Source: Patescibacteria group bacterium (GTDB lineage: Bacteria; Patescibacteriota; UBA1384; XYA2-FULL-43-10). Taken from it: a stretch of 64,000 bases of DNA. Each line of letters begins with the position of its first letter. Within the stretch, counting starts at the first letter, position 1. Shown here in pieces: positions 1,748 through 61,800 of this stretch. The stretch is from the NCBI GenBank assembly GCA_041674405.1, contig JBAYVT010000001.1, positions 103,967 through 167,966 of the forward strand, written 5' to 3'. A program made the translations under genes and the position numbers. The notes below the pieces were generated by a model, which did no database searches, was not told the DNA's origin, and saw nothing but the letters and a program-made list of their open reading frames with translations.

Positions 1748-1751
1748 AATA

Positions 1752-2018
1752 GGCGACTAACAGGCGGGCGAAAGCATTGCTCTATCGACTGAGACCCGAA
1801 GGGTACCCTTTCCCGAAGGAAAGACCCAACGGGTAGCCATTGGCTCCTTTGGCTTGGGTCTACGCTGGCGAATCAAAAATCCCCTCATAATTCACTCATA
1901 AAGATAGCAAATATTAGGGGATTACACAATGCATTTGTAGCTCCTCGACAAACTCGGGGTAAACAGTTACCCCAATTTCGCGATTACGTTCCGCGGGGCA
2001 GCCAGAATTGATATTGTT
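1752..2018. ncRNA. Unassigned GC-rich, hairpin-dense ~270-nt spacer between tRNA-Thr and tRNA-Gly. Candidate structured RNA; identity unknown.
   Basis: Perfect hairpins GGGGTAAC/GTTACCCC, ATCCCCT...AGGGGAT, CTTTCC-CGAA-GGAAAG and GACCCAA...TTGGGTC. A segment resembles a tRNA D-arm (CTCAGTCGATAGAGC). No ORF. Confidence 0.25.
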
Positions 2019-3726: not shown

Positions 3727-4164
3727 ATGTCTGAACAAAGAACAAAAGTTGGCGTCGGAGTAATGATTCTGCGTGGCGGTAAGATCCTTTTGGGTTTGCG
3801 GAATGAAGATGCAGAAAAAGCCAGTTCCGAACTTCATGGCGAGGGCACGTGGACAATGCCTGGCGGAAAGATGGATTTTCAAGAAAAACTGGTTGATCTT
3901 TGTTTTCGTGAAACAAAAGAGGAAACTGGGATCGAGATTGCCAAAGATAAACTAAAACTTATCAGCATTCAAGAAAACATCACCGCGGACAAGCATTTCA
4001 TCACACTGGGATTTCTCTCGGAAAATTTTTCCGGAGAGCCGAAAGTTTGCGAGCCGGATGAGATCATCGAGTGGCGCTGGTTTCCAATCGCCGATATTCC
4101 GGAAAATATCTTTCCACCAAGCAAACAGGTGCTAGATCACTATTTGAATCATAAAATATTCTAA
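3727..4164 (+). CDS. NUDIX hydrolase
   Basis: Nudix box [24 protein letters not shown]. Confidence 0.85.
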
Positions 4165-42746: not shown

Positions 42747-43232
42747 ATGAAAAAACGAGATAAACAAATTGACGAGGTCAAGGAGCTGGAAGCCAAAGTC
42801 GCCGAACTCACAGCCGGTTGGCAGAGGACACAAGCCGATTTTATGAACTATAAAAAACAGGCTGCTGAAGACCGGGCAAAATTGATCGAATCTGCATGCT
42901 CTGCACTTATTTATGATATTCTGCCGGTCTTGGATCACTTTCAACTCGCAGCTAGACATCTACCAAAAGATCTTGAAAATAATGACTGGGCAATCGGAAT
43001 CAAGCATATAGAGAAACAATTCGAGACTATACTCTCCGAGAATGGTCTGACAAAAATCGAAACTGTCGGAAAACAATTTGATCCTCACTTACATGAAGCT
43101 GTGGAAGAGGTCGAATCCGACGAGCCAGAAGGAACTATTGCCGAAGAAACTTTGGCAGGATATGCATTCAATGGATCTGTGCTGCGTGCAGCCAAAGTAA
43201 AAGTTGTAAAAAATATTCCACCAAAGAGCTAA
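42747..43232 (+). CDS. grpE: Nucleotide exchange factor GrpE
   Basis: Coiled-coil N-terminus ...DFMNYKKQAAEDRAKLIESACSALIYDILPVLDHFQLA and C-terminal beta domain. Confidence 0.85.
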   Translation: MKKRDKQIDEVKELEAKVAELTAGWQRTQADFMNYKKQAAEDRAKLIESACSALIYDILPVLDHFQLAARHLPKDLENNDWAIGIKHIEKQFETILSENGLTKIETVGKQFDPHLHEAVEEVESDEPEGTIAEETLAGYAFNGSVLRAAKVKVVKNIPPKS

Positions 43233-43242
43233 GAGCCAATAC

Positions 43243-43277
43243 CCGCAATGAGGTTAATTTTGCGGACATATTTTTTC
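43243..43277 (+). terminator. Probable terminator after grpE
   Basis: CCGCAA-tgaggttaattt-TTGCGG followed by ACATATTTTTT. Confidence 0.45.
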
Positions 43278-43351
43278 GTGGTGAAGCTGATGAATAGGAT
43301 ATCAGCACCCATACGGGAAGTCAGCCGGTTCGATTCCGGCCACCGCGACCA
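43277..43351 (+). other. tRNA-like 75-nt element: paired acceptor ends, D-arm-like and canonical T-arm plus encoded CCA, but no anticodon arm (tRNA pseudogene or tRNA-mimic)
   Basis: CGTGGTG...GCCGGTTCGATTCCGGC-CACCGCG-A-CCA. The T-arm is identical over 20 nt to that of tRNA-Gly(CCC) at 2019-2092. Only 16 nt sit where the anticodon arm and variable loop (21-22 nt) should be. Confidence 0.45.
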
Positions 43352-43507
43352 TTCGACTCGTTTCACTCGCTCATGGCAAGCCAAAACGAAAAGTGAATCC
43401 ATTCGACTCTCTTTGCTCAGCCCAAATGGTCCCCTTCGGGGCTCATGGTAAACCGTCTGCCTCACCGATTATGGTGGGGCAGAATCCTAATAAGGTATAA
43501 TGAAGCC

Positions 43508-43975
43508 ATGCAACAAAAAACGAAAAAAGATACTATTGAAGAACGCAATGGCGGATTCGCCTGTGCGCATTGTAAGAAATGGGTAAATTTTTCTGACACG
43601 ATCGGAACACATCATAGAAATCATTGCCCCTATTGCCTCTGGTCCCTGCACGTTGACGACAAAGTTTCCGGCGACCGCAAGGCAGACTGCCATAGTAGCA
43701 TGGAGCCGATTGGATTGACGCTCAAAGAGGAAGGAATCGACAAATACGGGAACAAGAAACAGGGTGATGTGATGATTATTCATCAGTGTAAAAAATGTAG
43801 CAAAATTTCAATCAACCGCATCGCCGCCGATGATGGCAATGAAAAAATATTAGATCTATTGAACTATAAAATTGATTCTAAAACAAAAAAAGATCTCAGG
43901 GACTCTTCTATTGTTGTACTCAATCAATCAAATTATCCAGAAATTAAAACAGCTCTAATCGGTAAGAACATTTGA
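43508..43975 (+). CDS. RNHCP domain-containing protein
   Basis: CAHC...HHRNHCPYC...CKKC: the eponymous RNHCP motif with flanking Cys pairs. TATAAT lies 7 nt upstream of the ATG. Confidence 0.75.
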   Translation: MQQKTKKDTIEERNGGFACAHCKKWVNFSDTIGTHHRNHCPYCLWSLHVDDKVSGDRKADCHSSMEPIGLTLKEEGIDKYGNKKQGDVMIIHQCKKCSKISINRIAADDGNEKILDLLNYKIDSKTKKDLRDSSIVVLNQSNYPEIKTALIGKNI

Positions 43976-44575
43976 GGGAGTTTCTTCTAGGTGTTTGATG
44001 TCGTTAATAGTCTTTATGGAAATTTTTTTGTTTTCATCAATCAGTACGACACTAATGCTGGTATTGGCAATTTCTGTAAGCTTGCTGCCAATTTCTTGAT
44101 CAATGTAACAAAATAAATTCTTGAGCCAAATCCCGTGTGTTACAGCTAAAATTGTTTTATCCGAATAATCATTTGCGATCATCTTAATAAATTTCTTGAC
44201 ACGTATAAGCACGTCAGTGTCATTTTCGCCTCCCTCTGGGCAAAAATCTTCCTTAGACAGGCCCGAACTTAATCTCGCCTCCTCACGCAGCACCGACAAT
44301 TTACCTTCAAATATTCCGCTTCCTTTCTCTCGAAGCAAAGGCTCGTAAATAACCGGAAGGTCTGAGTGATATTTCAAAATTTCTTTAATAGTATCTTTGG
44401 TCCTTTTTAGATCGCTACAAAAAGCGATGTCAAAGTGTTGGTCTTTTAATCTCTCTCCAACTTTTCTCGCTTGTTCGGCTCCGATTTCGGAAAGTGGGTT
44501 ATGGGAATGTCCCTGAACAATTTTTTGGTCATTGTAGCCAGTATGTCCATGGCGGACAAATACGAGATTAATCAT
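43955..44575 (-). CDS. Histidine phosphatase family protein (phosphoglycerate mutase-like)
   Basis: N-terminal LVFVRHGHTGYN (RHG motif), downstream catalytic His (VTHG). Confidence 0.85.
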   Translation of the reverse strand: MINLVFVRHGHTGYNDQKIVQGHSHNPLSEIGAEQARKVGERLKDQHFDIAFCSDLKRTKDTIKEILKYHSDLPVIYEPLLREKGSGIFEGKLSVLREEARLSSGLSKEDFCPEGGENDTDVLIRVKKFIKMIANDYSDKTILAVTHGIWLKNLFCYIDQEIGSKLTEIANTSISVVLIDENKKISIKTINDIKHLEETPSNVLTD

Positions 44576-45041: not shown

Positions 45042-48000
45042 TTATTTAATCCTCGAGATTCCGATCCAAATTTTCTCACCGTCGATACAGAATTCTTCTG
45101 AACCTTCCGGGTTTTCGATTTTTCCGTCAGTGCTTTCTTTCGCTAGTACTTCTTTGGCAATAATTTCCGACATTGATTTCATCACTTTTTTCAATACCTC
45201 TCCCGATGTAGCGTAATTTACAACTATCCTGTTCTCAACTTCAAACCCGGACTTTTTGCGTAGCGATTGGATGTTGCGGATGAGTTCCCTGGCAACACCT
45301 TCGGTTTTTAATTCGTCAGTTAATACCGTATCAAGCTCGACGCCTGTCTCCCCTACTCCGGAATTCTTATCTCCTTCGTCAATATGAATATCTCGTGCGT
45401 CGACATAAACTACTTTTTTCACATTTACTTCTTCAGCAATGATTGTTTCCAAATCTTCAGACAATTTTTTACCGGAATATTTTAGAAGAGCTAAAGGCTG
45501 GCGAACTTTTATTCCCGCTTCCGATCTTTTGGCTAAGCCAGCTTCAACAATCTGCCGTGTTTCTGCCATCTCATCCAGAACAGAAAGATCAAATTCTTCC
45601 GGTGCGGGGAAATCGGCCAAGTGTACCGATTCCGGATCACTTTCTTGCTTTAGGCCCTGATACACGGTTTCGGCGAACATCGGAGTAAACGGCGCCAAGA
45701 GTTTCGATAAGCCGATCAAAACTTCATACAAAGTATGATATGCCGATTCTTTATCGCTGTCAGACTCCGATTTCCAAAATCTGCGGCGTGAGCGGCGGAC
45801 ATACCAAGTAGAAAGTTCGTTTATAAAATCAAGAATCGTATTTGCCGGTCTGTAGGTATCATAGTTATCCAATGATTCGGTGATGGTTTCGGTAAGTTCG
45901 TTAAACTTCGCAAGGATCCATTTGTCTAGAATGTTTGTAGCTTCTGTTTTTCCGCTCGGCTTCCAACCGTCGATTGATGCGTACATAGAAAAGAATGAAT
46001 AAACATTCCAAAGCGTGATAAATAGGTTGCGGGAAACAGACAAAACTTCTTTTTCTGAAAAAAGCTTCGGCTCACCGGGCTGATTCACAGAATAAAGGAA
46101 GAAGCGGACGACATCGGCGCCAACTTTCTCAAATTCAGCCATCGGCTCGACAATGTTTCCCTTCGACTTCGACATTTTTTGCCCTTTTTCGTCTAGAATA
46201 TGTCCTGTCGAGATAACATTTTTAAAACAAGAATTATTTTTTACAATCGTCGAGATCGCGAGAAGCGTGTAAAACCAGCCTCGGGTTTGATCGATCGCTT
46301 CGCAAATGAAATCAGCCGGGTACTGCTCAGCAAAGAGTTCGCTGTTTTCGAATGGATAGTGATATTGGGCGTATGGCATGGAGCCGGAATCGAACCAGAC
46401 ATCCATCACTTCTGGAGTTCGTTTCATCGTTCCGCCGCATTTGCAGGTGAATTCAACCTCATCAACAAATGGTTTGTGAGGATCGAAGGCAGTACCGTCA
46501 GAATTTAGATAAAATTTATGAGATAATTCATGATCAGGGCGTTCGTGTTGGAAGTATCCAGAATAATCCAAGTTCCCTAAAATCATGTTCAATGCACCAT
46601 TAATGGCCCCGTGTGCAACAATAACGATTGTCTTACCAGGATATTCTTTTCCAATCTTGGCTAAAAATTCTTTGACCCTTTCTACAACATCAGCTCTCGT
46701 TTCCCCCGTGGTGCCAAGCTTAAAATTAAATCTTTGTTCAGGAATTTTCTCAGTCACCAAATAATCTTGAAAATCTTTCCTGTCAAGTCTTTGTTCGGGT
46801 GTAAGCTCATTCCATTCGCCGGAGTCCAGCTCAATGATTCTGTCGTCGAATATCAATTCCGCATCTACATGTTTCTTAACGATTTCTGCGGATTGCTTTG
46901 CTCTCAACACCGGAGAAGATATTATTATGTCAACTTTGTCCTTTATTTTTTTTGCGGTTGTTTCCACCTGAGTCACACCCTTCTCTGTAAGAGGCCATTT
47001 ATCAAGCGCTTTTGAATCAATATCAAGAATGTTTCTCTCCGTTTCACCGTGTCGGACAAAGATCAATTTCGTTACCTTAGTATTGCTCTCGTTGAAATCC
47101 ATAAAATTGCCAACGACTTTTTTCTCGTCACACTTGTCGCAAGTCCAGACCGGGAGCGGCGTCCCCCAATATCTGTCACGGGAAATTGCCCAGTCATTGA
47201 TATTTTCGAGCCAATTGCCAAAACGGCCGTGCTTTAAGTAGGCTGGGTTCCAGTTGATTGTCTCATTATTTTCAAGAAGCTCATCTCGAAGTTTCGACAT
47301 CGCGATATACCAAGAATCCTTGGCAAAGTAGAGAAGCGGTGAGTCACAACGCCAGCAGAACGGATAATCATGGGCGAACATCTCTTTTTTAAATAATATT
47401 CCACGTTTTTCAAGATCGAGTTTCACTTCTTTGTCGGCGTCTTTGACAAAGCTTCCTTTGCCAGCGCCGGCAAGCTCCGTCCCCTTTTCATCAACGGTCT
47501 TTAAAACCTTGATGCCGTTCTTGCGAAAACCAAATTCGTAATCATCCTCACCAAATGCCGGGGCAATGTGGACGATGCCGGTGCCGTCTGAATCGGTGAC
47601 AAAATCGGCGACAATCAGCTTGTAAACTTTCTCTCCACCTTCAGAAAATTTATCTCCGTCCGGATAAATCGCTTCGTAATCCGGTTTGTCGGTGAAAGAT
47701 GGGGCAGCAATTTCCGAACCGGTCAGCTCTTTAATGACATTTGCACCAGGCAAAACGGCATCGAGACGGCTTTGCGCAAGTATATACTTCTCTCCGTCTT
47801 TTTCTGCCAAAACGTATTTGATATTCGGGCCAAATGCTAGAGCGGCGTTGCCTGCGAGCGTCCAAGGCGTTGTCGTCCAGACAAGAAAATACGCATCTTC
47901 ATGATTTGATTTAACCTTGATATAGACTGATTCCTCTTCAACATTCTTGTATCCCTGGGCAACCTCATGAGAAGATAACGCCGTACCGCAGCGCGGGCAA

Positions 48001-48563
48001 TATGGCACGACTTTGTGGCCCCTGTAAAGCAAACCTCGTTTTTCAGCTTCGGATATCACCCACCAGATCGATTCGATATATTTGGAATCGTAGGTGACAT
48101 ATGGATCTTTCATATCGAGCCAGTAGGCCATGCGCTCGGTCATCTTTTCCCACTCGGATTTGTAAACAAAAACCGACTCTTTGCAAAGTTTATTGAATTT
48201 GGCAACCGAAGCATTTTTGTCGCCCGGAACGATATTCTCGATATCGCCCTTGCCAGAAATACCGAGCTCCTTCTCCACCTGAAGCTCTACCGGAAGCCCT
48301 TGCGTGTCCCAGCCTGCTTTGCGTCGGACATTGTAGCCTTGCATAGTTTTATATCGGTTGAAAAGATCTTTGAATGCGCGGTTTAGAACATGATGAATAC
48401 CAGGCTTGCCGTTGGCTGTCGGCGGTCCTTCATAGAATACAAAATTGCCTTTCGGGCTATCCTTCCCAAGGCTCTTCTCAAATGTTTTATCCTCTCGCCA
48501 AAATTCGAGAATTTTCTTCTCTTCTTCCGGTAAATTAAGTTTTGGATCAACCTTTTTGAACAT
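45042..48563 (-). CDS. ileS: Isoleucine--tRNA ligase, type 2 (eukaryote/archaea-like), carrying an inserted ~210-aa histidine-phosphatase-fold domain
   Basis: GPPTANGKPGIHHVL (HIGH region), CP1 editing domain, KMSKSKGN. The RHG-phosphatase insert (LIFVRHGETERN ... IVIVAHGAING) lies between the two zinc knuckles (WTCDKCDEK and FTCKCGG), at roughly nt 46476-47108. Confidence 0.9.
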   Translation of the reverse strand: MFKKVDPKLNLPEEEKKILEFWREDKTFEKSLGKDSPKGNFVFYEGPPTANGKPGIHHVLNRAFKDLFNRYKTMQGYNVRRKAGWDTQGLPVELQVEKELGISGKGDIENIVPGDKNASVAKFNKLCKESVFVYKSEWEKMTERMAYWLDMKDPYVTYDSKYIESIWWVISEAEKRGLLYRGHKVVPYCPRCGTALSSHEVAQGYKNVEEESVYIKVKSNHEDAYFLVWTTTPWTLAGNAALAFGPNIKYVLAEKDGEKYILAQSRLDAVLPGANVIKELTGSEIAAPSFTDKPDYEAIYPDGDKFSEGGEKVYKLIVADFVTDSDGTGIVHIAPAFGEDDYEFGFRKNGIKVLKTVDEKGTELAGAGKGSFVKDADKEVKLDLEKRGILFKKEMFAHDYPFCWRCDSPLLYFAKDSWYIAMSKLRDELLENNETINWNPAYLKHGRFGNWLENINDWAISRDRYWGTPLPVWTCDKCDEKKVVGNFMDFNESNTKVTKLIFVRHGETERNILDIDSKALDKWPLTEKGVTQVETTAKKIKDKVDIIISSPVLRAKQSAEIVKKHVDAELIFDDRIIELDSGEWNELTPEQRLDRKDFQDYLVTEKIPEQRFNFKLGTTGETRADVVERVKEFLAKIGKEYPGKTIVIVAHGAINGALNMILGNLDYSGYFQHERPDHELSHKFYLNSDGTAFDPHKPFVDEVEFTCKCGGTMKRTPEVMDVWFDSGSMPYAQYHYPFENSELFAEQYPADFICEAIDQTRGWFYTLLAISTIVKNNSCFKNVISTGHILDEKGQKMSKSKGNIVEPMAEFEKVGADVVRFFLYSVNQPGEPKLFSEKEVLSVSRNLFITLWNVYSFFSMYASIDGWKPSGKTEATNILDKWILAKFNELTETITESLDNYDTYRPANTILDFINELSTWYVRRSRRRFWKSESDSDKESAYHTLYEVLIGLSKLLAPFTPMFAETVYQGLKQESDPESVHLADFPAPEEFDLSVLDEMAETRQIVEAGLAKRSEAGIKVRQPLALLKYSGKKLSEDLETIIAEEVNVKKVVYVDARDIHIDEGDKNSGVGETGVELDTVLTDELKTEGVARELIRNIQSLRKKSGFEVENRIVVNYATSGEVLKKVMKSMSEIIAKEVLAKESTDGKIENPEGSEEFCIDGEKIWIGISRIK

Positions 48564-49318: not shown

Positions 49319-49804
49319 GTGGAAATGAATCAAGAAATCTATTTGAAAATCGGAGTTGTGGTTCTAAACGAAAATGACGAAATTCTTTTGATCAAGGAGA
49401 AAGTTGATGAAGAATCAGAACCGGCGCTCAACATCATAAAAGGGACTTTTGATAAACCTCACGAAAGTATTATCGATTGCGCCAAGCGAGAATGCTTGGA
49501 GGAAGCGGGGCTTGAGGTAGAGTTTCTAGGAGTCTTGAATATATTGACCATGCAGTCTCGCGGAAAACTCAAAATCCAGTTTAATTTTGTTGCCAGAGCA
49601 AACACCGACAAGGTTTCCCTGCCAAAAGAAAGAGGCCTCCACATTGAAGGAGAAAATATCATTGGAGAATCTTGGTTTACCAACGATCAGATTGCAGATC
49701 TAGAACCCAAAGATTTTGTTGCAGATTACACGCTACGCATTATCCGAGAATGGATAGAAAATGGTAAAGTATATTCCCTAAATATTTTGGAAGACCAATT
49801 TTAA
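49319..49804 (+). CDS. NUDIX hydrolase
   Basis: Nudix box GTFDKPHESIIDCAKRECLEEAGLEV. Confidence 0.8.
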   Translation: MEMNQEIYLKIGVVVLNENDEILLIKEKVDEESEPALNIIKGTFDKPHESIIDCAKRECLEEAGLEVEFLGVLNILTMQSRGKLKIQFNFVARANTDKVSLPKERGLHIEGENIIGESWFTNDQIADLEPKDFVADYTLRIIREWIENGKVYSLNILEDQF

Positions 49805-52143: not shown

Positions 52144-55100
52144 CTAAATCACGATATTTACAATTTTTCCAGGTACGACGATTACTTTTTTAATCTCTTT
52201 GCCAGTAATAAATGCGCTGACTTTTTCACTATTTTTAGCAGCTTCCTCGAGGGCAGTTTTTTCAATATCTTTATCTACTTCGATGACATCGCGAAGTTTG
52301 CCATTGACCTGAATGGCAATTTTGATCTTATCGTCGCCTTTCAAGCTTTCATCAAATTTCGGCCAAGCTGAATTTGAAACCAAACCCTCGTTGCCGAGCT
52401 TTTCCCATAATTCTTCGGCCAAATGAGGAGCAGCCGGTGCTAGAAGCTGGCAGAATACACCAAATGATTTTTTACTAATTTCTTTCTCGGCCGACATAAG
52501 ATTGTTGAAAGTCATAAGTTTGGCAACATAAGTATTCAAGTTGAATCGCTCAAGATCGTTCTCAACAGCAAAGACTAATTTATTTACAGCAACTGCAAGA
52601 TTATCACTATCAACTTTACCAGAGACTTTGTCCGAGTTTTCCCAAACTTTATTAAGAAATCTTGAAACGCCAGATAAGCCGTCCATGTTCCAGGCGGATT
52701 CTTTATCATACGGCCCGATGAACATAATGTAGGTGCGAAGCGCATCGGCACCATAGCGCTTCACAACATCATCCGGATTGACCACATTCCCCCGCGATTT
52801 GCTCATTTTTTGGTTGTCCGCGCCAAGTATGATCCCGTGAGCGATTCGTTTGTTATATGGCTCAAGCGTTGGCACTTTGCCAAGATCATATAGAAATTTG
52901 TGCCAAAAACGCGAATACAAAAGGTGCAAAGTTGTATGTTCGTTGCCGCCATTGTAAAGATCAACCGGCATCCAATATTTCAATTCTTTGACTGATGCTG
53001 AGAAAATGTCTTCGCTTGATTCATAATTCTTGATTCTTGATTCTTGATTCATTGCGTAAGCGATGAAGTACCACGATGATCCCGCCCAGTTTGGCATCGT
53101 ATCGGTCTCGCGCTTGGCGGGGCCGCCGCACTTCGGGCAGGTTGTATTTACCCAGTCGGTAATTGCGGCAAGCGGGGACTCACCGGTATCGGTCGGCTCA
53201 TACTTTTCAACCTCCGGTAAAGTAAGTGGTAAATCTTTCTCATCCATCGGCACAGTCCCGCACTTCTCGCAGTGGATGATAGGGATCGGCTCGCCCCAGT
53301 AGTGCTGGCGGGAAAATATCCAGTCACGAAGCTTGAAATTGACTGCGAAATCCCCGGCACCCATTTCCTTGAGCTTCTCGGTTATTTTCTTTTTACCTTC
53401 TTCTGATGTTAACCCATCAAACTCTTTGGAATTGGCAAGAACGCCATATTCCTCAAATGAATGTGCTGGATTATGAAAGCGGTCACGGACAATTTCATGC
53501 TCTATCGGCAGGACATATCCTTTGATATTCTCAATTTCATCCCAATCCGCCCAGAACGGTTCGCTTTCCTCTGCCTCTTCTTTGGATAACGGCTCCTGCT
53601 CCTCATCAAGCAACTCGAAAGCCAAAGGATAATATGTAGCTTTTCTATTCACATTTTTGTGAGTTGCATGGAAATGGACTTCCATCGGGCCGCCTAAGTT
53701 TCGAACGAATTTGACGTTCTTGTAACCGGTTTCTTCTAAAATCTCGCGCTTGGCGGTATCAACGATTGATTCACCTGGCTCAATGCCGCCGATAACCAAC
53801 CCGATCCAAGGAAACTTCTTCCACTTAAGGGCTAGAACTTTGTTATTTTTGGGATTTATTACCACGGCATAAACCTGCTTTCGCTCGACTGTCTCTACGC
53901 CATCGATTGGCGGATCATTTTTATCAATTAGTTTAGGAATGATAACTTCCTTGATTGGAATATTGTATTTTTCGGCAAATTCAAAATCCCTCTGGTCGTG
54001 CGCAGGCACCGCCATCACGGCACCGGTTCCATAGGTTGCGAGAACATAATCAGCAATCCACACAGAAACTTCCTCGCCGTTTATCGGATTTATAGCTTTA
54101 ATTCCTTTTAATTCCACTCCAGTCTTGTCTTTGGCAAGCTCAGTCCTGTCCATATCTGACTTTTTCTTCGCATTTTCAATATAGTTTTCCACATCTTTGA
54201 CATTTGATATTTGATCTTTGATTTTGTCAACGAGTTCGTGTTCCGGCGCTAATACTATATATGTCACGCCGAAAAGCGTATCCGCGCGAGTAGTGTAGAC
54301 CTTGATAATATTATCATTTAAGGATTCCAGAAACTTGGCTCTTTCAAGATCATTTTTTCCGGCTCTGCGTTCTTTTTGGGCGGTAATCTTATAACAATTT
54401 GCCAGCCATTTTGCATCGGGAACTAAAAATTCATGCCCGTCCAGTTCTTTTATAGTATCTCCCAGATCATGATCAAGTGTCCCAATCTCAATGTTGAAAT
54501 CATCAGTACGAAAGACGCAAACCTGAAATTTTCCGTTGTCCTTATCTTCAATTTTACTGTAACCAAGTTCAGAAAAGATTTTTTTGCTTTCATCAAAATC
54601 TTTGGCCAAAACTCCCAAATCAACATCTGCAGGATTTTCAAAAATATTTCCGCAATATCCAGCAACTGCAAAAGTACCATTAACCCAGAGTTTGATATTG
54701 CGCTTTTTAAATTCTGAATTGATCCTATCAATCGCTTCAAGCATTTTATTTGTTTTGTCAGAAATATTGGCATTCCCAAGATCAACTTTTTCTGAAGTTT
54801 GCTCCGCTTCGGTTGAAATGACAATTTTAAAATCAATTTCCGTTCCCTCGGATCGGCCAATCCAGTTTATCTGCTGGGTTTTGATATTCTCAAGATAATC
54901 AACGGTATCGAGATCCTTGATCAATCTATCTGCATAGGCTGTGATACGGAGCATCCATTGCTTCTGTTTGCGTTTTTCTGTCTGCGCGCCGCAGCGTTCA
55001 CAATTTCCGCCGATCACCTCTTCGTTGGCGAGGATGATTTTGCATGATGGGCACCAGTTAACTGGCATCTCGGCCTGAAATGCCAAGCGTGGAGTTTCTT

Positions 55101-55587
55101 TGTCGTCATCGGCAACTTCGACAAGCTTGCCGTTGACAATCGCGTGCTTATAGAACTGCATGAATATCCACTGCGTCCATTTATAATAATTGGGATCAGT
55201 AGTATTGACCTCGCGACCCCAATCGAAGGAATAGCCAAGCGATTTCATCTGCTTTTTGAAGGTCGCAATACTTAGTGTGGTAACGTCTCTTGGTTTTGTC
55301 TTGGTTTTAATTGCGTAATTCTCTGTCGGCAGACCAAATGCGTCCCAACCCATTGGAAAAAGAACATTGTAGCCTTGCATCCTTTTCATACGCGTAAACG
55401 CATCCGAGGCGGTGTAACCCATGCAGTGTCCAACGTGCAATCCTGATCCGGAAGGATAAGGGAACTCCATGAGGGAGTAGAACTTCGGCTTATCGGAAAA
55501 ATCAATGGACTGGCCGTATTTCGCCTCTTCCCAGGCCTTCTGCCATTTAGATTCAATTTTTTCAAAATCGTATTTTGCCATAATCAA
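52144..55587 (-). CDS. leuS: Leucine--tRNA ligase carrying two inserted enzyme-fold domains (nucleotidyltransferase-like and NUDIX)
   Basis: HVGHCMGY (HIGH), CPSC...CERCG zinc domain, NWIGRSEG, CP1 editing, KMSKSRGN, 1147 aa. Insert 1 sits between EIDFKI and VYTTRADT (E. coli has 7 aa there) and contains GTFAVAGYCGNIFENPADVDLGVL, a GS...DhDh nucleotidyltransferase motif. Insert 2 after YNIPIKEVI contains the Nudix box GGIEPGESIVDTAKREILEETGY. Confidence 0.9.
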   Translation of the reverse strand: MIMAKYDFEKIESKWQKAWEEAKYGQSIDFSDKPKFYSLMEFPYPSGSGLHVGHCMGYTASDAFTRMKRMQGYNVLFPMGWDAFGLPTENYAIKTKTKPRDVTTLSIATFKKQMKSLGYSFDWGREVNTTDPNYYKWTQWIFMQFYKHAIVNGKLVEVADDDKETPRLAFQAEMPVNWCPSCKIILANEEVIGGNCERCGAQTEKRKQKQWMLRITAYADRLIKDLDTVDYLENIKTQQINWIGRSEGTEIDFKIVISTEAEQTSEKVDLGNANISDKTNKMLEAIDRINSEFKKRNIKLWVNGTFAVAGYCGNIFENPADVDLGVLAKDFDESKKIFSELGYSKIEDKDNGKFQVCVFRTDDFNIEIGTLDHDLGDTIKELDGHEFLVPDAKWLANCYKITAQKERRAGKNDLERAKFLESLNDNIIKVYTTRADTLFGVTYIVLAPEHELVDKIKDQISNVKDVENYIENAKKKSDMDRTELAKDKTGVELKGIKAINPINGEEVSVWIADYVLATYGTGAVMAVPAHDQRDFEFAEKYNIPIKEVIIPKLIDKNDPPIDGVETVERKQVYAVVINPKNNKVLALKWKKFPWIGLVIGGIEPGESIVDTAKREILEETGYKNVKFVRNLGGPMEVHFHATHKNVNRKATYYPLAFELLDEEQEPLSKEEAEESEPFWADWDEIENIKGYVLPIEHEIVRDRFHNPAHSFEEYGVLANSKEFDGLTSEEGKKKITEKLKEMGAGDFAVNFKLRDWIFSRQHYWGEPIPIIHCEKCGTVPMDEKDLPLTLPEVEKYEPTDTGESPLAAITDWVNTTCPKCGGPAKRETDTMPNWAGSSWYFIAYAMNQESRIKNYESSEDIFSASVKELKYWMPVDLYNGGNEHTTLHLLYSRFWHKFLYDLGKVPTLEPYNKRIAHGIILGADNQKMSKSRGNVVNPDDVVKRYGADALRTYIMFIGPYDKESAWNMDGLSGVSRFLNKVWENSDKVSGKVDSDNLAVAVNKLVFAVENDLERFNLNTYVAKLMTFNNLMSAEKEISKKSFGVFCQLLAPAAPHLAEELWEKLGNEGLVSNSAWPKFDESLKGDDKIKIAIQVNGKLRDVIEVDKDIEKTALEEAAKNSEKVSAFITGKEIKKVIVVPGKIVNIVI

Positions 55588-55630: not shown

Positions 55631-56371
55631 CTATGGTAGGCGACAAAAAAGTACTTCTTGTTGGTAATCTTTCGTTTCTGCAATTATTTTTCCCTCCGTT
55701 GAAAATAAGTAACCACCTCCCGGAAAATCATCATCCATATTTCGTCCAGACTGAGTCGCGACAGCAATATTGATTTTATTTTCTCTGGCATAATTTCCAA
55801 TTTTTGTAATGCAATTATTTTTCCACCACAAATAGCCCTTCTCCCAGTTACGATTTTCTCGATCGCCATACAAATCAGGAGATGCGCACTCAAACACTAC
55901 TTTGCAACCCTTGGTTGCATATTCTTTATATAATTCTGGCAAATCAATATCAGCACAAATTGTAATGCCGAACCTTACTCCACCCAAATCAAAAATTGGT
56001 GATTCAACTCCAGAAGAAAAAATCTTCTCCTCTCCGCTTTGGACATTATGCTTACGGTAAACACCTACGATTTTCCCATTTTGAGCAAAAATTTGGGTAA
56101 TGTGATATCCGGAATTGTCTTTTTCTCCTATTCCAAACAAAATTGCAATATCCTTGCTTGCTCCAACAACTTTCTTTACAGGTTTGCTCTCTAATTCCAG
56201 ACATGTATCGATATAATTATTTTCTGTAAAATAACCCGTTAGACTCATTTCCGGGAACACGGCTACATCCGCCTTTGCTTTTGCTGCAAAAGAAATATAA
56301 TCGGACATTCTCTCCGAATTAATTTTGATTTCACCCTTTGCTGAGGGCATTTGAACCAAAGCTATTTTCAT
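55631..56371 (-). CDS. Carbon-nitrogen hydrolase (nitrilase superfamily)
   Basis: MKIALVQM..., FPEMSLTGY, catalytic GITICADI (E-K-C triad context). Confidence 0.8.
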   Translation of the reverse strand: MKIALVQMPSAKGEIKINSERMSDYISFAAKAKADVAVFPEMSLTGYFTENNYIDTCLELESKPVKKVVGASKDIAILFGIGEKDNSGYHITQIFAQNGKIVGVYRKHNVQSGEEKIFSSGVESPIFDLGGVRFGITICADIDLPELYKEYATKGCKVVFECASPDLYGDRENRNWEKGYLWWKNNCITKIGNYARENKINIAVATQSGRNMDDDFPGGGYLFSTEGKIIAETKDYQQEVLFCRLP

Positions 56372-56802
56372 TGTTTATTCGTTAAATATTTAACAAGTTT
56401 TTCTTTTGCAAATGTTGGATAAAGATTTGGGGTTTTTGAAATGTCGTCGAAATCCATCCAGTGAATATAGTATTGATTATTTGAATCAGTCAACATTTTT
56501 CGCGGTTCGTTGAGTTTCGGTTTTCCGCTGAATTTATCAATCAAGAAAAAGTAGCTGGTTCTACCAATATCATTTCCATTCTTTTCAACATATCCCTCAA
56601 ACAAAAGTTTTCCAGTTTCAGCATCAATACCGAGTTCTTCTTTCAATTCGCGCTTCGCTGTTTGCTCGAGACTTTCTCCTTCCTCGACTCCACCGCCGGG
56701 AAAGCTAAAATATTCTTCTCCATCCTTGATCCTACGAAACAGGAGAATTTTATTATCTTTCAATATAATCCCGCACGCTCTTTGGGTTATCCTAAAATTC
56801 AT
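56368..56802 (-). CDS. NUDIX hydrolase
   Basis: FPGGGVEEGESLEQTAKRELKEELGI. ATGA overlap with the downstream C-N hydrolase. Confidence 0.9.
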   Translation of the reverse strand: MNFRITQRACGIILKDNKILLFRRIKDGEEYFSFPGGGVEEGESLEQTAKRELKEELGIDAETGKLLFEGYVEKNGNDIGRTSYFFLIDKFSGKPKLNEPRKMLTDSNNQYYIHWMDFDDISKTPNLYPTFAKEKLVKYLTNKQ

Positions 56803-57823: not shown

Positions 57824-58882
57824 TTGCAAGAGTATCAACTCATCAAATTGTGGAAGGAAATAATGGTAGAAGGAAAATTTTATTTTTCACATGAACATGA
57901 GCAGCATACAGGCTTTACAGACAGTGAAGGAAATGATTGGGATGTACCTGGGCGGCTGGAGAAAATTGTCTCATGGATTGCCAGAAGGTATGGAGAAAAT
58001 TATTTAAATGTTCTGCAAGAAATAAACGAGTCTGATTTTATTGATATAATTCGGCGGGTTCACGAAGCCGAAATGATAGAGGAACTGAAACAAACTAGCC
58101 TAAGAGCAAAGGATGGCGAAGCCCTAATTACGTCATTTGACTCAGATAAGGAAACGAGCGTTACTCCTGTTTCGAGACATACATATAAAAGCGCACTTGC
58201 TGCGGTAAAATGCTCTCTTTCAGCAGCCGAAATGTTGAAAAGCTCTCGGTCAAACCTTGCTGTCGCCTTATCACGCCCTCCAGGACATCACGCTGGGAAA
58301 AATTATTATCATGGTTTTTGTTACATGAACAATATTGCTGTCGCAGCCGAATCTTTAAAAGAGGATGGAGAAAGAGTAGCAATTCTGGATATTGACGCTC
58401 ATCATGGCGACGGAACTCAACAAATCTTCCAAGATGACTCAAGCGTATTTTACTCTTCGCTTCACGCTGATCCAAATCTGGTGCTTCCGCATACCGGAAA
58501 GTCTGACGAGATCGGTAATGACGGAAGTATTTTGAATCTCCCTTATTCAATTGGTATCTCGACAGAAGAATATTTGACCTTGCTGAATTTTTCGCTTAAA
58601 CATATCCAAATGTTTGACCCGCAATATCTGTTAATATCGGCTGGATTTGATACCCACAAACGCGAATTTGAATCGATGGGCTTGCCACCAGTTACGCAGC
58701 TTGATTCACCCGACTACGAGGAGATAGGGCGGATGATTGGATCATTGTCTTTGCCAACTGGGGTGGTTCTTGAAGGGGGTTACAACCAAACTGCGTTGAG
58801 CGAAGCTTTGATGAATTTTACTATTGGCCTGGAGAACAGCTTAAAAACCAAGCCATGCTTTGACTTTTTTGCTCTAAAGTGA
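57824..58882 (+). CDS. Histone deacetylase/acetoin-utilisation (HDAC, arginase-deacetylase fold) family hydrolase
   Basis: ILDIDAHHGDGTQ, PPGHHAG and GFCYMNN motifs. Confidence 0.85.
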   Translation: MQEYQLIKLWKEIMVEGKFYFSHEHEQHTGFTDSEGNDWDVPGRLEKIVSWIARRYGENYLNVLQEINESDFIDIIRRVHEAEMIEELKQTSLRAKDGEALITSFDSDKETSVTPVSRHTYKSALAAVKCSLSAAEMLKSSRSNLAVALSRPPGHHAGKNYYHGFCYMNNIAVAAESLKEDGERVAILDIDAHHGDGTQQIFQDDSSVFYSSLHADPNLVLPHTGKSDEIGNDGSILNLPYSIGISTEEYLTLLNFSLKHIQMFDPQYLLISAGFDTHKREFESMGLPPVTQLDSPDYEEIGRMIGSLSLPTGVVLEGGYNQTALSEALMNFTIGLENSLKTKPCFDFFALK

Positions 58883-58895
58883 GTATTATTTTGCT

Positions 58896-61800
58896 ATGTA
58901 TAATGTTAAGCTACTACATGATTTTTTTGTGTTTCAGTCTCAAAAAAATCCCAATCAAATTGCCGTCGTTGATTTCAAAAAATCCTATACCTATAAAGAA
59001 ATCGAAACAAGCGCTAATCGCCTTGCTTTTGAATTGACCAGTCACTCCCCTGCGCTTCAACAGGATAAAATCGGATTTTTTACAGATCGTTCGGTTGATT
59101 CGATAATTATTATGCTTGGCATATTAAAATCAGGCCATGCTTTTGTTCCTATCGATCCCAACCTACCAGCAAAGCGCATCGAATATATTTGCGATAAAGC
59201 CACGATTAAAACTATCGTTTCAGGAAACACAGAATATTATTCAAGCAAAAAACAAACAATTATTCACCTTCGGTCGATCATAACCGTCAAAGATTTCAAG
59301 TATAAAGAAATAAAAATTCCAGACGATAGAATTGCATATTGTCTATTTACATCAGGATCAACGGGGAGACCTAAGGGGGCGCTGATCAAACACTCCGGTA
59401 TTGTACAATCTATTAAAAACTTTAAAAAGGCATATCATTTTGATAAAAACAGCAAGGTACTTCAATTTGCTAGCCTATCGTATGATGCGTCCCTATCAGA
59501 GATTTTCCCAACTTTTGCTGCCGGTGGAACTATTTATATTCCGCCCAGAGAAGTGATTTTAGATATTGATAAGTTATCATCATACATTATCGAGTCAGGT
59601 ATAACAGCAGCAATATTTCCGCCTACTGTTATCGGGCACCTTAACAAAGATTCTCTTTCTTCACTCTCAACTTTAGTGTCCGCAGGCGAAGAATGCCCTG
59701 CTGATTTAGCAAATAGAATGTATGAATTGGTTCCACATTTTATTAACGCATACGGACCCACAGAAGCTTCAGTAGGAGTTACCACCTTTGAACTAGACCG
59801 GAAAATAAAAAATGCAGTTCCTATTGGCAAAGCTTTACCTGGATACAAGATTTATATATTAAACAAGGTTGGTCAAAGAGTCTCTATTGGCCAAATTGGC
59901 GAACTCTGTATAGGCGGCGTTGGAGTTTTTGCCGGTTATATCGGGGATAGCGCAAAAACTCACGAAGTTTTAATCCCTAATCCTTTTGGCGTCGGTTATC
60001 TGTATAAGACCGGCGATCTTGTAAAACAAGATGCGAATGGGCAAATTTATTATGTTGGAAGGAATGACTTTCAAATAAAATTACATAGCATTAGGATGAG
60101 CCCGGAAGAAATCGAAAGAGAAATTAAGAAGCTGCCAAAAATCAATGAATGCGTGGTTGTTGATGGATGTCTTGAAAGTAACAAGGAACACAAATTGGTC
60201 TGTTATTTTACTGCCTCAGAAGATTTAAATTTAACAGTAACACGAGATATCCTTCGTTCCAAGTTGCAACCACATATGATTCCCCAGGTTTTCATCCATA
60301 TTCCTTCAATGCCTCTGACCCCAAGCGGAAAAATCGACCGACATGCACTTCAAATAAAACCCGTCAGAATAAAAACTGAGACAGATACTCTTAACGACAG
60401 CGTAATTTCTGACTCTCCAATAGCACGCATATGGAAAGATATTTTGGGCACGAACTCCGTGTCTCTTGAAGACAACTTTTTTGAATTAGGCGGATCATCT
60501 ATCTCCGCCATGCGGATCGTCTCGAAGATTAATAAAAATACAGACTTTCATGCAAACATAAATTTAATTTTTGAATATCCTGTTTTTAATGATTTCGTTC
60601 GCGCCCTAGAAAAAGAAGCTTCAGAGACAGAAAAAGAACATGATAAGACATTTGCAGACCAAAAGTTAACAGACCCAGAAAAGTTATTTTGGGCCGCCAA
60701 CTATACTTCCAAGAAACCGGAAGCATATACACTAACTGAAGTGTTTGAACTTAATGGACAAATAAATACAAACAGACTTCAAAGAAGTTTCGAGTTTCTA
60801 ATTAGTCAATTTCCTAAATTACGCACCAATTTCAGATTTAGGTTCGATAAAATTGAAAAAGTGATTAAAAATGAAAAATCATATCCGTTCTGTCTCCGTG
60901 ATTATTCAAATCTGGATATCTCCAGAGCAAGAAAAAAGGCCAGGCAAACCCAGGAACATATTGCCAACATTCCCATGGATCTGGAAAAAGACTGGCTCTT
61001 TGTAGCCTATTATTTGAAATTGTCTGAAGTAGAAGGACTGCTGATCTTCCATGCCCATCACATTGTTATGGACGCCAGAGCAATGGAAATTATATCTAAA
61101 AAATTTTGGGATTATTATGAACACCATCAAGATTACAAGTTGGTGGAAAATATTAATTCTATGCATTCACAACCTACAGATGATGAAAAAACCTTTTGGA
61201 AAGAATATTTGTCCCGAGCAGATGATAATTTGACTTCATTGCCATATGACAATCCCAAGAATGAAACAACAGAAAACAATGGAAAGACTATTATACATCC
61301 ATTACCTTTGCGATTGGCCCGAGAAGGATCCAAAACTGCTACGGCTCTAGGCATTACCCCTTTCTCTCTTTTTCGAAATATTTTTTCCTTACTCCTTCAT
61401 CGTCTTTCAAATCAGGTTAATTTAACTGTTGGCACGGCTGTCAGCCTGCGAGATGACAACAGTGAAAATGATATTGGTGTTTTCTTAAATACATTACCTA
61501 TCCGGTCAACTTTGCGGAGCGGAGAACCAATAGAAAAATATCTAGTAAGACAAAATAAGGAATTTATACATTGCTTTAAACACAGGAACCTTTCACTACC
61601 TCATATTCTCAAACTAATTCAGAATGACTGCAAAAAAGACTCTCAGCCCCTATTTAATGTAATGTTTGATTATATTGCTGAAGAAGGCACTTCTAAGGTA
61701 ATCGGTTTGCAAGTAAAACGTCAAAGGGCCTTTCCGGCAACTGCACTTTTTGATCTTACCCTCACGGTCAAAGAATTAAATTGCGGTTTTGAATTGCTGT

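What the first reader, a model, noticed from the sequence alone, without database searches (positions are those of the whole stretch)
43277..43420. tRNA-like 75-nt element without an anticodon arm, followed by a ~30-nt imperfect tandem repeat and UUCG hairpins, between grpE and the RNHCP gene
The element has complementary acceptor strands (CGTGGTG/CACCGCG), a D-arm-like hairpin, a canonical T-arm identical over 20 nt to that of tRNA-Gly(CCC) at 2019-2092, a discriminator A and an encoded CCA. Only a CCC-atac-GGG mini-hairpin sits where the anticodon arm and variable loop should be. Immediately after it, CCATTCGACTC-(G)TTTCACTCGCTCA-TGG is repeated as CCATTCGACTCTCTTTGCTCAGCCCAAATGG. A CCCC-UUCG-GGGG hairpin and a 10-bp stem TCTGCCTCACC/GGTGGGGCAGA follow. 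This could be a tRNA-derived regulatory or mimic RNA, or an att-site remnant. I looked for a tmRNA tag reading frame (…LAA stop) and found none.
Basis: seen in the sequence. Interest (0 to 1): 0.5.

Follow-up and report, generated by a model that had tools for sequence, protein, structure and literature searches.

The report
Conserved tRNA-like gene without an anticodon
A small group of ultra-small (Patescibacteria/Berkelbacteria-like) bacteria keeps, right after the heat-shock gene grpE, a 72-77-nt gene that folds like a tRNA with a normal amino-acid-accepting end but only a tiny capped stub where the anticodon should be, so it cannot read codons, yet it has been preserved by selection.

Summary
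Window 43277-43351 (+) folds as a four-way cloverleaf. It has a 7-bp acceptor stem (C1:G72, one U.G), A73 and an encoded CCA. It has a canonical T arm, a long D-like arm, and a 3-bp/4-nt stub in place of the anticodon arm. ARAGORN and Rfam do not call it as tRNA or tmRNA.

It is not a decaying pseudogene. The same element sits between grpE and the RNHCP gene in three other related genomes. It is 78-90% identical there, while grpE third codon positions are only 37-49% identical and the flanking spacer 33-74%. All four copies fold alone into the same shape. The hairpin-1 loop varies from 8 to 12 nt, so there is no anticodon.

Three related genomes lack the element, and one has only a 3' fragment, so it is dispensable. 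Its acceptor end is closest to the tRNA-Pro(CGG) that follows grpE in other Berkelbacteria, which suggests descent from that gene.

Best reading: a selectively maintained, non-decoding tRNA mimic. It is probably made from grpE read-through transcripts, matured like a tRNA, and acts through its acceptor/T half. The function is unproven. This is a new small family within a known kind, with narrow distribution (four genomes) and too few sequences for covariation statistics.

The parts
42747..43232 (+). grpE (161 aa), the upstream gene. The element probably depends on its transcription.
   Evidence: ORF. PF01025 homologues.
43243..43276 (+). Terminator-like hairpin CCGCAA/UUGCGG with an 11-nt loop, then ACAUA and U6. 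It ends directly at the element's first base, and U is at position -1.
   Evidence: Fold. The same hairpin plus U-run, with different sequence, abuts the element in L033, L036 and L107. The simple scan finds no sigma-70-like promoter between the grpE stop and the element, and does not call the hairpin as a terminator because its loop exceeds 8 nt.
43277..43351 (+). The tRNA-like element: a 75-nt four-way cloverleaf with no anticodon arm.
   Evidence: Orthologues are L033 884-955, L036 691-767 and L107 1217-1291.
43277..43283 (+). 5' acceptor strand CGUGGUG, followed by A8 A9.
   Evidence: Pairs with 43341-43347. C1, G2 and G4-G7 are invariant in 4 genomes.
43286..43306 (+). D-like arm: the 6-bp stem GCUGAU/AUCAGC is invariant in sequence. 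The loop GAAUAGGAU varies from 8 to 12 nt between genomes, and GG is present in 3 of 4.
43308..43317 (+). Stub hairpin CCC-AUAC-GGG at the place of the anticodon arm.
   Evidence: It is CCCC/GGGG in L033, (U)CCC/GGG(G) in L036 and UCC-GAAA-GGA in L107, which includes one both-sided change.
43324..43340 (+). T arm GCCGG-UUCGAUU-CCGGC.
   Evidence: It shares a 16-nt exact run with tRNA-Gly(CCC). L033 has lost one nt on each strand, so the helix is kept.
43341..43351 (+). 3' acceptor strand CACCGCG, discriminator A73 and encoded CCA.
   Evidence: G72, A73 and CCA are invariant.
43349..43382 (+). Trailer unit 1: CCATTCGACTCGTTTCACTC + GCTCATGGCAAGCC. It starts with the CCA of the element.
   Evidence: D1, D2.
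43399..43454 (+). Trailer unit 2: CCATTCGACTCTCTTTGCTC + a 22-nt insert with CCCCUUCGGGG + GCTCATGGTAAACC.
   Evidence: The GCTCRTGGYARRCC motif occurs 3 times in L036, once in L037 and not at all in L033.
43456..43483 (+). Conserved hairpin UCUGCCUCACC-GAUUAU-GGUGGGGCAGA. It has G.U pairs on the + strand only and no U-run after it.
   Evidence: Hairpins with different sequence occupy the same place in L033, L036 and L037.
43496..43510 (+). TATAAT (43496-43501) lies 6 nt before the RNHCP ATG (43508). This is the RNHCP gene's own promoter and the mRNA is probably leaderless.
   Evidence: (T)GGTATAAT is conserved in L033, L036 and L037. The simple scan did not call it, because it has no -35 match.

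Best explanation
This is a vertically inherited gene, kept by selection, for a non-decoding tRNA-like RNA.

What it keeps and what it lacks:
- It keeps the whole 'top half' of a tRNA: a 7-bp acceptor stem with C1:G72, A73, an encoded CCA, and a 5-bp T arm with a canonical loop.
- It keeps a D-like arm that can form the elbow.
- The anticodon arm is replaced by a 3-4-bp stem capped by 3-4 nt, so it cannot read a codon.
- It most likely descends from a tRNA gene. The best candidate is the tRNA-Pro(CGG) that follows grpE in other Berkelbacteria.

Proposed working (inference):
- It has no promoter of its own and starts 0-9 nt after the U-run of the grpE hairpin.
- It is therefore transcribed by read-through from grpE, and its level would follow heat-shock transcription.
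- RNase P would cut after U(-1), and the trailer would be trimmed back to the encoded CCA.
- The mature ~75-nt RNA would then act through its acceptor/T/elbow half. It would be a mimic, decoy or carrier for a protein that reads the acceptor end of a tRNA (proline-type C1:G72/A73/CCA) without needing an anticodon.

Shown: structure, conservation, position, absence of an anticodon. Inferred: transcription, processing, partner, and whether it is aminoacylated.
For: - Conservation: four independent genomes carry it at the same place. Element identity is 78-90%. grpE third positions are 37-49% identical, the upstream spacer 57-74% and the downstream spacer 33-55%.
- Structure: each copy folds alone into the same cloverleaf as its MFE.
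- Nature of the changes: they are mostly structure-neutral or compensating.
  - Pair 3:70 is U.G, U-A or G.G.
  - Pair 4:69 is G.U in L036.
  - One nt is lost on each T-stem strand in L033.
  - The stub is CCC/GGG, CCCC/GGGG or UCC/GGA.
- Not coding: indels are not multiples of three, and no reading frame is shared.
- No anticodon: the loop of hairpin 1 is 8-12 nt and its sequence varies. Relaxed ARAGORN gives a different forced call, or none, in each genome.
- Invariant identity positions: C1:G72, G2:C71, A73 and CCA.
- Possible ancestry:
  - The most similar acceptor of all 423 (13 of 15 positions) belongs to the tRNA-Pro(CGG) that follows grpE in Berkelbacteria L110-L113.
  - That tRNA is also the best true-tRNA hit of the element's covariance model, at 34 bits.
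  - Bacterial proline identity includes A73 and G72/C1-G72 (PMC9976931).
- Transcription: no promoter-like site lies between grpE and the element. U is at -1 in all four genomes.
Against: - Only four sequences are available. Covariation is not statistically distinguishable from shuffles (205 of 500 shuffles reach the observed score). Most of the structure is supported by invariance, which says nothing for or against pairing.
- Two of the four acceptor changes break a pair: G5xA68 in L033 and G3xG70 in L107.
- The element is absent from three related genomes (L035, L105, L321). It is reduced to a 3' fragment in L037. So it is dispensable.
- There is no expression data. No partner protein was identified. 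The window holds no tRNA-dependent transferase, SmpB or integrase.
- Bacterial ProRS also needs G35/G36 (PMC9976931), which are missing, so prolylation is doubtful.
- The link to tRNA-Pro is modest. The covariance-model scores of other tRNAs are close (24-31 bits), and the T arm matches tRNA-Gly(CCC) instead.
Confidence: 0.55

Rival explanations
1. tRNA pseudogene or integration scar with no RNA function. A tRNA gene was damaged by deletions or by repeated integration and excision at its 3' end, and is on its way out.
For: - Not called by ARAGORN or Rfam.
- Lost in L035, L105 and L321.
- Only the 3' 24-27 nt (GTTCGATTCCGGACACCGCGACCA) remain in L037. L107, from the same sample, has an intact copy followed by unrelated sequence. 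That looks like an attL/attR pair.
- The trailer carries repeats that begin with the element's CCA.
- There are acceptor mismatches in L033 and L107.
Against: - At a divergence where grpE third positions are 37-49% identical, an unconstrained 75-nt sequence would not stay 78-90% identical with a 19-nt invariant block while the adjacent spacer is 33-74%.
- The fold is kept in all four copies, with a matched one-nt loss on each T-stem strand in L033.
- No integrase or island lies at the locus in the window.
- The trailer is not significantly similar to the 3' half of the element.
- No matching attP was found in viral contigs.
Confidence: 0.15
2. RNA-processing 'punctuation' signal, like the mascRNA element of MALAT1. 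The tRNA shape exists only to recruit RNase P (and 3' trimming) so as to define the 3' end of the grpE mRNA or to insulate it from RNHCP. The released small RNA would be a by-product.
For: - The element starts 0-9 nt after the grpE hairpin and U-run, and has no promoter of its own.
- U is at -1 in all four genomes.
- In genomes without the element, grpE overlaps RNHCP. In genomes with it, RNHCP has its own TATAAT.
Against: - A terminator-like hairpin with a U-run already precedes the element, so RNase P is not needed to make the grpE 3' end.
- The invariant D-stem sequence and the first two acceptor pairs go beyond what RNase P needs (established knowledge: a T-arm/acceptor minihelix with CCA is enough).
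- No data on transcripts.
Confidence: 0.15
3. Minimal tmRNA-like RNA (tRNA-like domain only) that enters stalled ribosomes with SmpB or blocks trans-translation. Known examples are the tag-less forms of jakobid mitochondria, Mallomonadaceae plastids and mycobacteriophage DS6A.
For: - It is tRNA-like with a T arm, A73-CCA and no anticodon.
- Such ~65-nt tag-less forms exist, and the phage form inhibits host tmRNA (PMC11915505).
Against: - Pair 3:70 is U.G, U-A or G.G and never G.U, so the alanine determinant is missing (Ala identity G3.U70, PMC9976931).
- No tmRNA model (standard, permuted or mitochondrial) matches beyond the bare T arm, at 11.8 bits.
- ARAGORN tmRNA mode finds nothing, even when relaxed.
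- It has a 6-bp D stem, which tmRNA lacks.
- No smpB is nearby.
Confidence: 0.04
4. A real decoding tRNA of unusual shape. In this reading the D arm is missing, hairpin 1 is the anticodon arm, and the stub is a long variable arm as in tRNA-Leu or tRNA-Ser.
For: In the window, hairpin 1 can be drawn as 7 bp plus a 7-nt loop AAUAGGA. That would read as anticodon UAG with G37 and A73, which is Leu-like.
Against: - Loop length is 8 nt in L033, 8-10 nt in L036 and 12 nt in L107.
- The 'anticodon' would be UAG, UGG, UAU and UAG in turn, and position 33 is A rather than U.
- ARAGORN in mitochondrial (armless) mode finds nothing.
Confidence: 0.02

Closest known systems
Bacterial tRNA (Rfam RF00005), in particular tRNA-Pro(CGG)
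   Same: - 7-bp acceptor stem.
- 5-bp T arm with a GGUUCGAnUCC loop.
- A73 and an encoded CCA, as in the window's own tRNAs.
- C1:G72.
- Same place after grpE as tRNA-Pro(CGG) in Berkelbacteria L110-L113.
- Acceptor 13 of 15 positions identical to that tRNA.
   Different: - No anticodon arm.
- 6-bp D stem.
- A8 instead of U8.
- Fails the tRNA covariance model and ARAGORN.
- Cannot decode.
tRNA-like domain of tmRNA and tag-less mini-tmRNAs (jakobid mitochondria RF02544, Mallomonadaceae plastids, phage DS6A; PMC11915505)
   Same: - A tRNA-shaped RNA with a T arm and ACCA end but no anticodon.
- Similar size to the mini forms.
- The gene may serve as an integration site.
   Different: - No G3:U70.
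- Has a D stem.
- A short stub instead of helix P2.
- No covariance-model match.
mascRNA / MEN-beta tRNA-like small RNAs of vertebrate long non-coding RNAs (from my own knowledge)
   Same: - A cloverleaf with a reduced anticodon arm lying at the 3' end of a longer transcript.
- Released by RNase P, and non-decoding.
   Different: - Eukaryotic, with CCA added after transcription.
- There the upstream RNA needs the cut to form its 3' end. Here a terminator-like hairpin is already present.
tRNA-like module of bacterial Y RNAs (YrlA; PMC4201824, bioRxiv 10.1101/312249)
   Same: Mimics the acceptor, T and D parts of a tRNA without an anticodon. It is a bacterial non-coding RNA.
   Different: - In YrlA the module is embedded in a larger RNA whose ends form the Ro60-binding stem.
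- YrlA has no free ACCA end.
- No Rfam match here, and no rsr gene in the window.
tRNA-linked repeats downstream of E. coli tRNA genes (tyrT/rtT; from my own knowledge). This comparison concerns the trailer only.
   Same: Imperfect repeats directly after a tRNA-type gene. Each begins with the last bases (CCA...) of the gene, and copy number varies between relatives (0-3 here).
   Different: - The units here are ~34-56 nt and share only CCA with the gene.
- Similarity to the gene's 3' half is not significant.

Membership tests
Canonical tRNA (RF00005) | Covariance-model score at or above the 29-bit gathering threshold, or an ARAGORN call. | tested here: not met
   No RF00005 match even at E<=10. 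No match at gathering score either. ARAGORN default finds nothing.
Canonical tRNA (RF00005) | Anticodon arm: 5-bp stem and 7-nt loop with U33 and a conserved anticodon. | tested here: not met
   Only a 3-4-bp stub with a 3-4-nt loop. The other hairpin has an 8-12-nt loop of variable sequence.
Canonical tRNA (RF00005) | 7-bp acceptor stem, 5-bp T arm with a T-loop, discriminator and CCA. | tested here: met
   The T stem is 4 bp in L033.
tmRNA (RF00023, RF04321, RF02544) | G3:U70 in the acceptor stem (alanine identity). | tested here: not met
   Pair 3:70 is U.G, U-A, U.G and G.G in the four genomes.
tmRNA (RF00023, RF04321, RF02544) | Match to a tmRNA covariance model or ARAGORN tmRNA mode, and a tag reading frame (except in mini forms). 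| tested here: not met
   Only the 17-nt T arm matches tmRNA_permuted, at 11.8 bits against a 47-bit threshold. ARAGORN -m with relaxed settings finds nothing. No frame is shared between orthologues.
tmRNA (RF00023, RF04321, RF02544) | Works with SmpB. | not testable with these tools
   No smpB in the 64-kb window. The rest of the genome was not available.
Neutral tRNA pseudogene | Evolves at the rate of unconstrained sequence, and the structure decays. | tested here: not met
   78-90% identity against 37-49% at grpE third positions and 33-74% in the flanks. The fold is kept in all four copies.
att site / integration scar at a tRNA-type gene | A direct repeat of the gene's 3' segment bounding an inserted element that carries an integrase. 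| tested here: inconclusive
   L037 holds a 24-27-nt 3' fragment, and L107 (same sample) holds an intact copy with a different downstream sequence. However, the two contigs cannot be joined and no integrase was seen. There is no island in the window and no attP in viral contigs.
Bacterial tRNA-Pro (as ancestor, not as current function) | C1:G72 and A73 at the acceptor end. | tested here: met
   Invariant in all four copies. Identity set from PMC9976931.
Bacterial tRNA-Pro (as ancestor, not as current function) | Anticodon G35 G36 (and G37). | tested here: not met
   There is no anticodon loop. 'CGGGA' in the stub region of the window is not conserved in L107.
RNase P substrate | Coaxial acceptor/T helix of about 12 bp, a T-loop/D-loop elbow, a 3' RCCA, and preferably U at -1. 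| tested here: met
   The sequence features are present in all four copies. Actual cleavage is not testable here.

The most novel reading that the evidence does not exclude
The element is the founding member of a class of bacterial 'anticodon-less tRNAs'. In this reading a former tRNA-Pro(CGG) was re-used as a stable RNA that ends in CCA and may be aminoacylated, and that works off the decoding pathway. It could be an amino-acid carrier for a non-ribosomal transferase, or a heat-shock-coupled decoy that titrates an acceptor-end-reading enzyme (ProRS, a trans-editing factor, the CCA enzyme or RNase P). Its dose would be set by read-through of the grpE terminator.
Probability: 0.15. Interest if true: 0.8.

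Novelty: new variant of a known kind. Interest (0 to 1): 0.5.

Why it matters
tRNA-shaped RNAs that have given up decoding are rare, and each has revealed a distinct mechanism: tmRNA, viral tRNA-like ends, mascRNA and the Y-RNA tRNA module. A free-standing bacterial cloverleaf would be a new example in a lineage (Patescibacteria/CPR) whose RNA biology is almost unexplored. This one has an intact acceptor end and encoded CCA, a capped stub instead of the anticodon arm, and signs of selection. It also shows that standard tRNA finders miss such genes. If it is charged, it would show how far an aminoacyl-tRNA synthetase can do without the anticodon in vivo. The caveats are real: only four genomes, loss in close relatives, and no expression data.

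Tried and rejected
1. A pattern scan of JGI metagenome contigs for the D-like arm plus T-loop (GCTGATGAAT..ATCAGC..GTTCGA) gave 67 hits. All were chance matches in coding sequence or the like. None had the acceptor or T arm.

2. grpE relatives in GTDB genomes: the closest (60% identity and lower) have no synteny and no element.

3. Viral contigs:
   - The 16-mer of the 5' block gave 83 chance hits, none scoring with the covariance model.
   - The 3' half of the element gave no hit.
   - The L107 downstream sequence gave no hit.
   - The T arm plus CCAC hits ordinary tRNA-Leu(UAA), tmRNA 3' ends and similar.
   - No RNHCP relatives were found.

4. Idea that the trailer units are decayed copies of the element's T-arm-to-CCA half. 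Local alignment is no better than for shuffled trailers. Not supported.

5. Idea that the trailer is homologous to the structured spacer after tRNA-Pro in L110. The alignment is unconvincing. Dropped.

6. Functional link to the RNHCP gene. More distant RNHCP genes sit in other contexts (Obg-RNHCP-rubredoxin-HD) with 38-79-nt upstream spacers and no tRNA-like element. Relatives without the element keep RNHCP. The literature search for RNHCP found nothing relevant.

7. Small protein on either strand. Frames are not conserved.

8. Hammerhead (CUGAUGA) and C/D-box look-alikes in the D-like arm. The rest of those motifs is absent, and there is no Rfam hit.

9. A weak minus-strand match to Plastid-ycf2 5'UTR (23 bits against a 65.7-bit threshold). 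I treated it as a tRNA-derived look-alike on the wrong strand.

10. Phylogeny to count losses. Neighbour-joining trees of GrpE and RNHCP disagree and are unresolved. The three element-less genomes share the same GrpE C-terminal extension, so one event is likely, but the direction (gain or loss) is open.
Full report
**1. What is in the sequence.**

Window 43277-43351 (+) reads CGUGGUG AA GCUGAU-GAAUAGGAU-AUCAGC A CCC-AUAC-GGG AAGUCA GCCGG-UUCGAUU-CCGGC CACCGCG A CCA.

- Folded alone, it gives a four-way cloverleaf as its minimum-free-energy structure. That fold makes up 71% of the ensemble, at -30.8 kcal/mol, z = -3.8 against dinucleotide shuffles.
- Folded inside the whole 277-nt spacer, it stays an independent domain.
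- It has a 7-bp acceptor stem (with U3.G70), a canonical T arm, A73 and an encoded CCA.
- The window's real tRNAs also encode CCA.
- Where the anticodon arm should be, there are only 3 bp capped by 4 nt.
- ARAGORN and Rfam at gathering thresholds report three ordinary tRNAs in the window and nothing here.
- At E<=10 the best matches are tRNA-Sec at 18 bits (threshold 47) and the bare T arm against tmRNA_permuted at 11.8 bits.

- The exact run shared with tRNA-Gly(CCC) is 16 nt, not 20.
- The downstream repeat is two dispersed pieces, 20 nt at 80% and 14 nt at 86%, with different spacings. It is not a tandem array.
- The 'UUCG hairpin' is CCCCUUCGGGG.

**2. Where it comes from.**

- The flanking genes are grpE (42747-43232) and an RNHCP-domain gene (43508-43975).
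- The exact proteins are on record from a 395-kb contig of a 'Patescibacteria group bacterium'.
- The nearest named GrpE relatives are Candidatus Berkelbacteria.
- The rest of the window is an ordinary chromosome of such an organism: RuvABC, QueA/QueH, glycosyltransferases, ComEC, IleRS and LeuRS.
- It holds no integrase, SmpB or tRNA-dependent transferase.

**3. Orthologous regions.**

I fetched the contigs of the closest RNHCP and GrpE homologues. The same grpE-RNHCP neighbourhood appears in eight other contigs.

- The element is present, at the same place and on the same strand, in L033 (=L034), L036 and L107.
- It is absent from L035, L105 and L321. In those, a 168-170-aa GrpE overlaps the RNHCP start codon.
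- L037 has only the last 24-27 nt (GTTCGATTCCGGACACCGCGACCA), preceded by unrelated sequence.
- L106 ends at the grpE stop, so it says nothing either way.
- A covariance model built from the four copies finds them at 79-100 bits. It finds no second copy in the window and only true tRNAs at 24-34 bits elsewhere.
- All wider searches for further copies failed. The family is so far confined to four genomes.

**4. Is it under selection?**

| Sequence compared between the four genomes | Identity |
|---|---|
| GrpE protein | 67-74% |
| grpE third codon positions | 37-49% (close to saturation) |
| Spacer upstream of the element | 57-74% |
| Spacer downstream of the element | 33-55% |
| The element | 78-90% |

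- The element also has an invariant 5' block of 19 nt, apart from one change in L107.
- All four copies fold alone into the same cloverleaf.
- The differences sit in the hairpin-1 loop (8, 9, 10 and 12 nt), in the stub, and at a few stem positions. Most of those stem changes keep pairing:
  - Pair 3:70 is U.G, U-A, U.G and G.G.
  - Pair 4:69 becomes G.U in L036.
  - L033 has lost one nucleotide on each strand of the T stem.
  - The stub is CCC/GGG, CCCC/GGGG, (U)CCC/GGG(G) or UCC-GAAA-GGA.
- Two changes break a pair: G5xA68 in L033 and G3xG70 in L107.
- With four sequences, the covariation measures are no better than column shuffles. The case for function therefore rests on conservation and fold, not on covariation statistics.
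- Indels are not multiples of three and no reading frame is shared, so the constraint is not protein-coding.
- A neutral pseudogene is rejected.

**5. It does not decode.**

- Hairpin 1 can be drawn with a 7-nt loop in the window only.
- Across the orthologues its loop length and sequence change. Read as an anticodon it would be UAG, UGG, UAU and UAG in turn, with A at position 33.
- Relaxed ARAGORN forces a different four-base 'anticodon' or nothing in each genome.
- Its armless (mitochondrial) mode and its tmRNA mode find nothing.

**6. Likely ancestry.**

- C1:G72, G2:C71, A73 and CCA are invariant.
- In bacteria, A73 and G72 (C1-G72) are proline determinants, together with G35/G36 (PMC9976931).
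- In Berkelbacteria contigs L110-L113 (GrpE 72% identical), grpE is followed by a promoter, tRNA-Pro(CGG) (CGGGGUG...CACCCCG-A-CCA), a 165-nt spacer, tRNA-Ile(GAU) and dnaK.
- C1..G72 with A73 occurs in 18 of 19 tRNA-Pro and in 23 of 404 other tRNAs.
- It is also the best true-tRNA hit of the element's model, but only by 3-10 bits.
- The series G3xG70 (L107), U3.G70 (window, L036) and U3-A70 (L033) can be read as stepwise repair of a G3-C70 pair after a C70G change.
- I regard descent from the grpE-linked tRNA-Pro(CGG) as the best guess, not as shown. The T arm is identical to that of the window's tRNA-Gly(CCC) over 16 nt.

**7. Surroundings and likely biogenesis.**

- In all four genomes a hairpin (CCCGC...GCGGG) with a U-run follows the grpE stop. 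The element begins 0-9 nt after the U-run, with U at -1.
- The simple scan finds no sigma-70-like promoter between grpE and the element.
- By contrast, the Berkelbacteria tRNA-Pro has a clear TTGACA-17-TAGATT.
- I infer transcription by read-through from grpE, RNase P cleavage at C1, and trimming to the encoded CCA.
- Downstream lies a trailer of 18-130 nt. It carries 0-3 copies of a unit ending in GCUCRUGGYARRCC.
- Next comes a hairpin that differs in sequence but not in shape between genomes and has G.U pairs on the + strand only.
- Then comes (T)GGTATAAT, 6 nt before the RNHCP ATG. RNHCP therefore has its own, probably leaderless, transcript.
- More distant RNHCP genes have other neighbours and no such element. 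I see no functional tie to RNHCP.

**8. Mechanism.**

Shown:
- A conserved, single-copy, non-coding, non-decoding tRNA-shaped gene with an intact acceptor/T half.

Inferred:
- It is matured by the tRNA machinery.
- It acts as a mimic through the acceptor end and elbow.
- It could be a decoy or substrate for a protein that reads C1:G72/A73/CCA without the anticodon.
- Its amount would be coupled to grpE transcription.
- Whether it is aminoacylated is open. The invariance of the first two pairs and of A73 hints at it. The loss of G35/G36 argues against ProRS, and the lack of G3:U70 against AlaRS.

Rivals:
- **A scar or att site without RNA function (0.15).** The losses, the L037 fragment and the CCA-led trailer repeats support it. 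The conservation contradicts it.
- **An RNase P punctuation element of the mascRNA type (0.15).**
- **A tag-less mini-tmRNA (0.04).** It fails on G3:U70 and on every tmRNA model.
- **An odd decoding tRNA (0.02).**

**9. Comparison and novelty.**

- It works like the known anticodon-less tRNA mimics: the tmRNA tRNA-like domain and its tag-less mini forms (PMC11915505), mascRNA, and the tRNA-like module of bacterial Y RNAs (PMC4201824).
- It is a member of none of them by the tests in the membership table.
- No Rfam 15 family matches it or its orthologues.
- A full-text search found no paper linking Patescibacteria and tRNA-like RNAs.
- I rate it a new variant of a known kind.
- It is of moderate interest: a real and selected oddity, but known from four metagenomic genomes, dispensable in close relatives, and without expression data or a partner.

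Noticed in passing
window 45042-48563 (-) and 52144-55587 (-): IleRS (1173 aa) carries a histidine-phosphatase (His_Phos_1) domain inserted at about residues 500-679. LeuRS (1147 aa) carries a NUDIX domain at about residues 570-687, next to the editing domain. Stand-alone His_Phos_1 (43955-44575) and NUDIX genes (3727-4164, 49319-49804, 56368-56802) lie nearby. The same IleRS architecture is seen in L033.
   Followed up: no
window 43496-43510; L033, L036, L037: The RNHCP gene has (T)GGTATAAT only 6 nt before its ATG in all four genomes. This suggests a leaderless mRNA.
   Followed up: partly
L107 1217-1349 and L037 1-61 (both from sample SRR30681611): L107 has grpE plus an intact element followed by unrelated sequence, and then the contig ends. 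L037 begins with unrelated sequence, then the last 24-27 nt of the element, the usual trailer and RNHCP. Both are closest to L035 in the trees. They may be the two ends of an insertion into the element (attL/attR) or two different strains.
   Followed up: partly
L110 3206-3370 (same in L111-L113): A 165-nt GC-rich spacer lies between tRNA-Pro(CGG) and tRNA-Ile(GAU), downstream of grpE in Berkelbacteria. It is closed by a perfect 10-bp stem GUUAUGGAGC/GCUCCAUAAC. It matches no Rfam family. It may be an unrecognised structured RNA.
   Followed up: no
window 1748-2018 (-): A ~270-nt spacer lies between tRNA-Gly(CCC) and tRNA-Thr(CGU). It contains several UUCG-capped hairpins. Both tRNAs are followed by the same CCAAACAATAT.
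   Followed up: no
window 43369-43382 and 43441-43454; L036 ~776-870; L037 ~100-113: The motif GCUCRUGGYARRCC recurs 0-3 times in the trailers. Its core AUGGU-AA-ACCAU is palindromic, and its UGGU could pair with the element's ACCA end. Its meaning is unknown.
   Followed up: partly
window 58878-64000 (+): An open reading frame of at least 1707 codons runs off the end of the window. This explains the apparent lack of listed ORFs there.
   Followed up: partly
L035 117-629, L105 155-667, L321 687-1193: In the three genomes without the element, GrpE is 168-170 aa with a shared C-terminal extension and overlaps the RNHCP start by about 11 nt. The spacer with the element was therefore either deleted once or inserted once. 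The trees do not settle the direction.
   Followed up: partly
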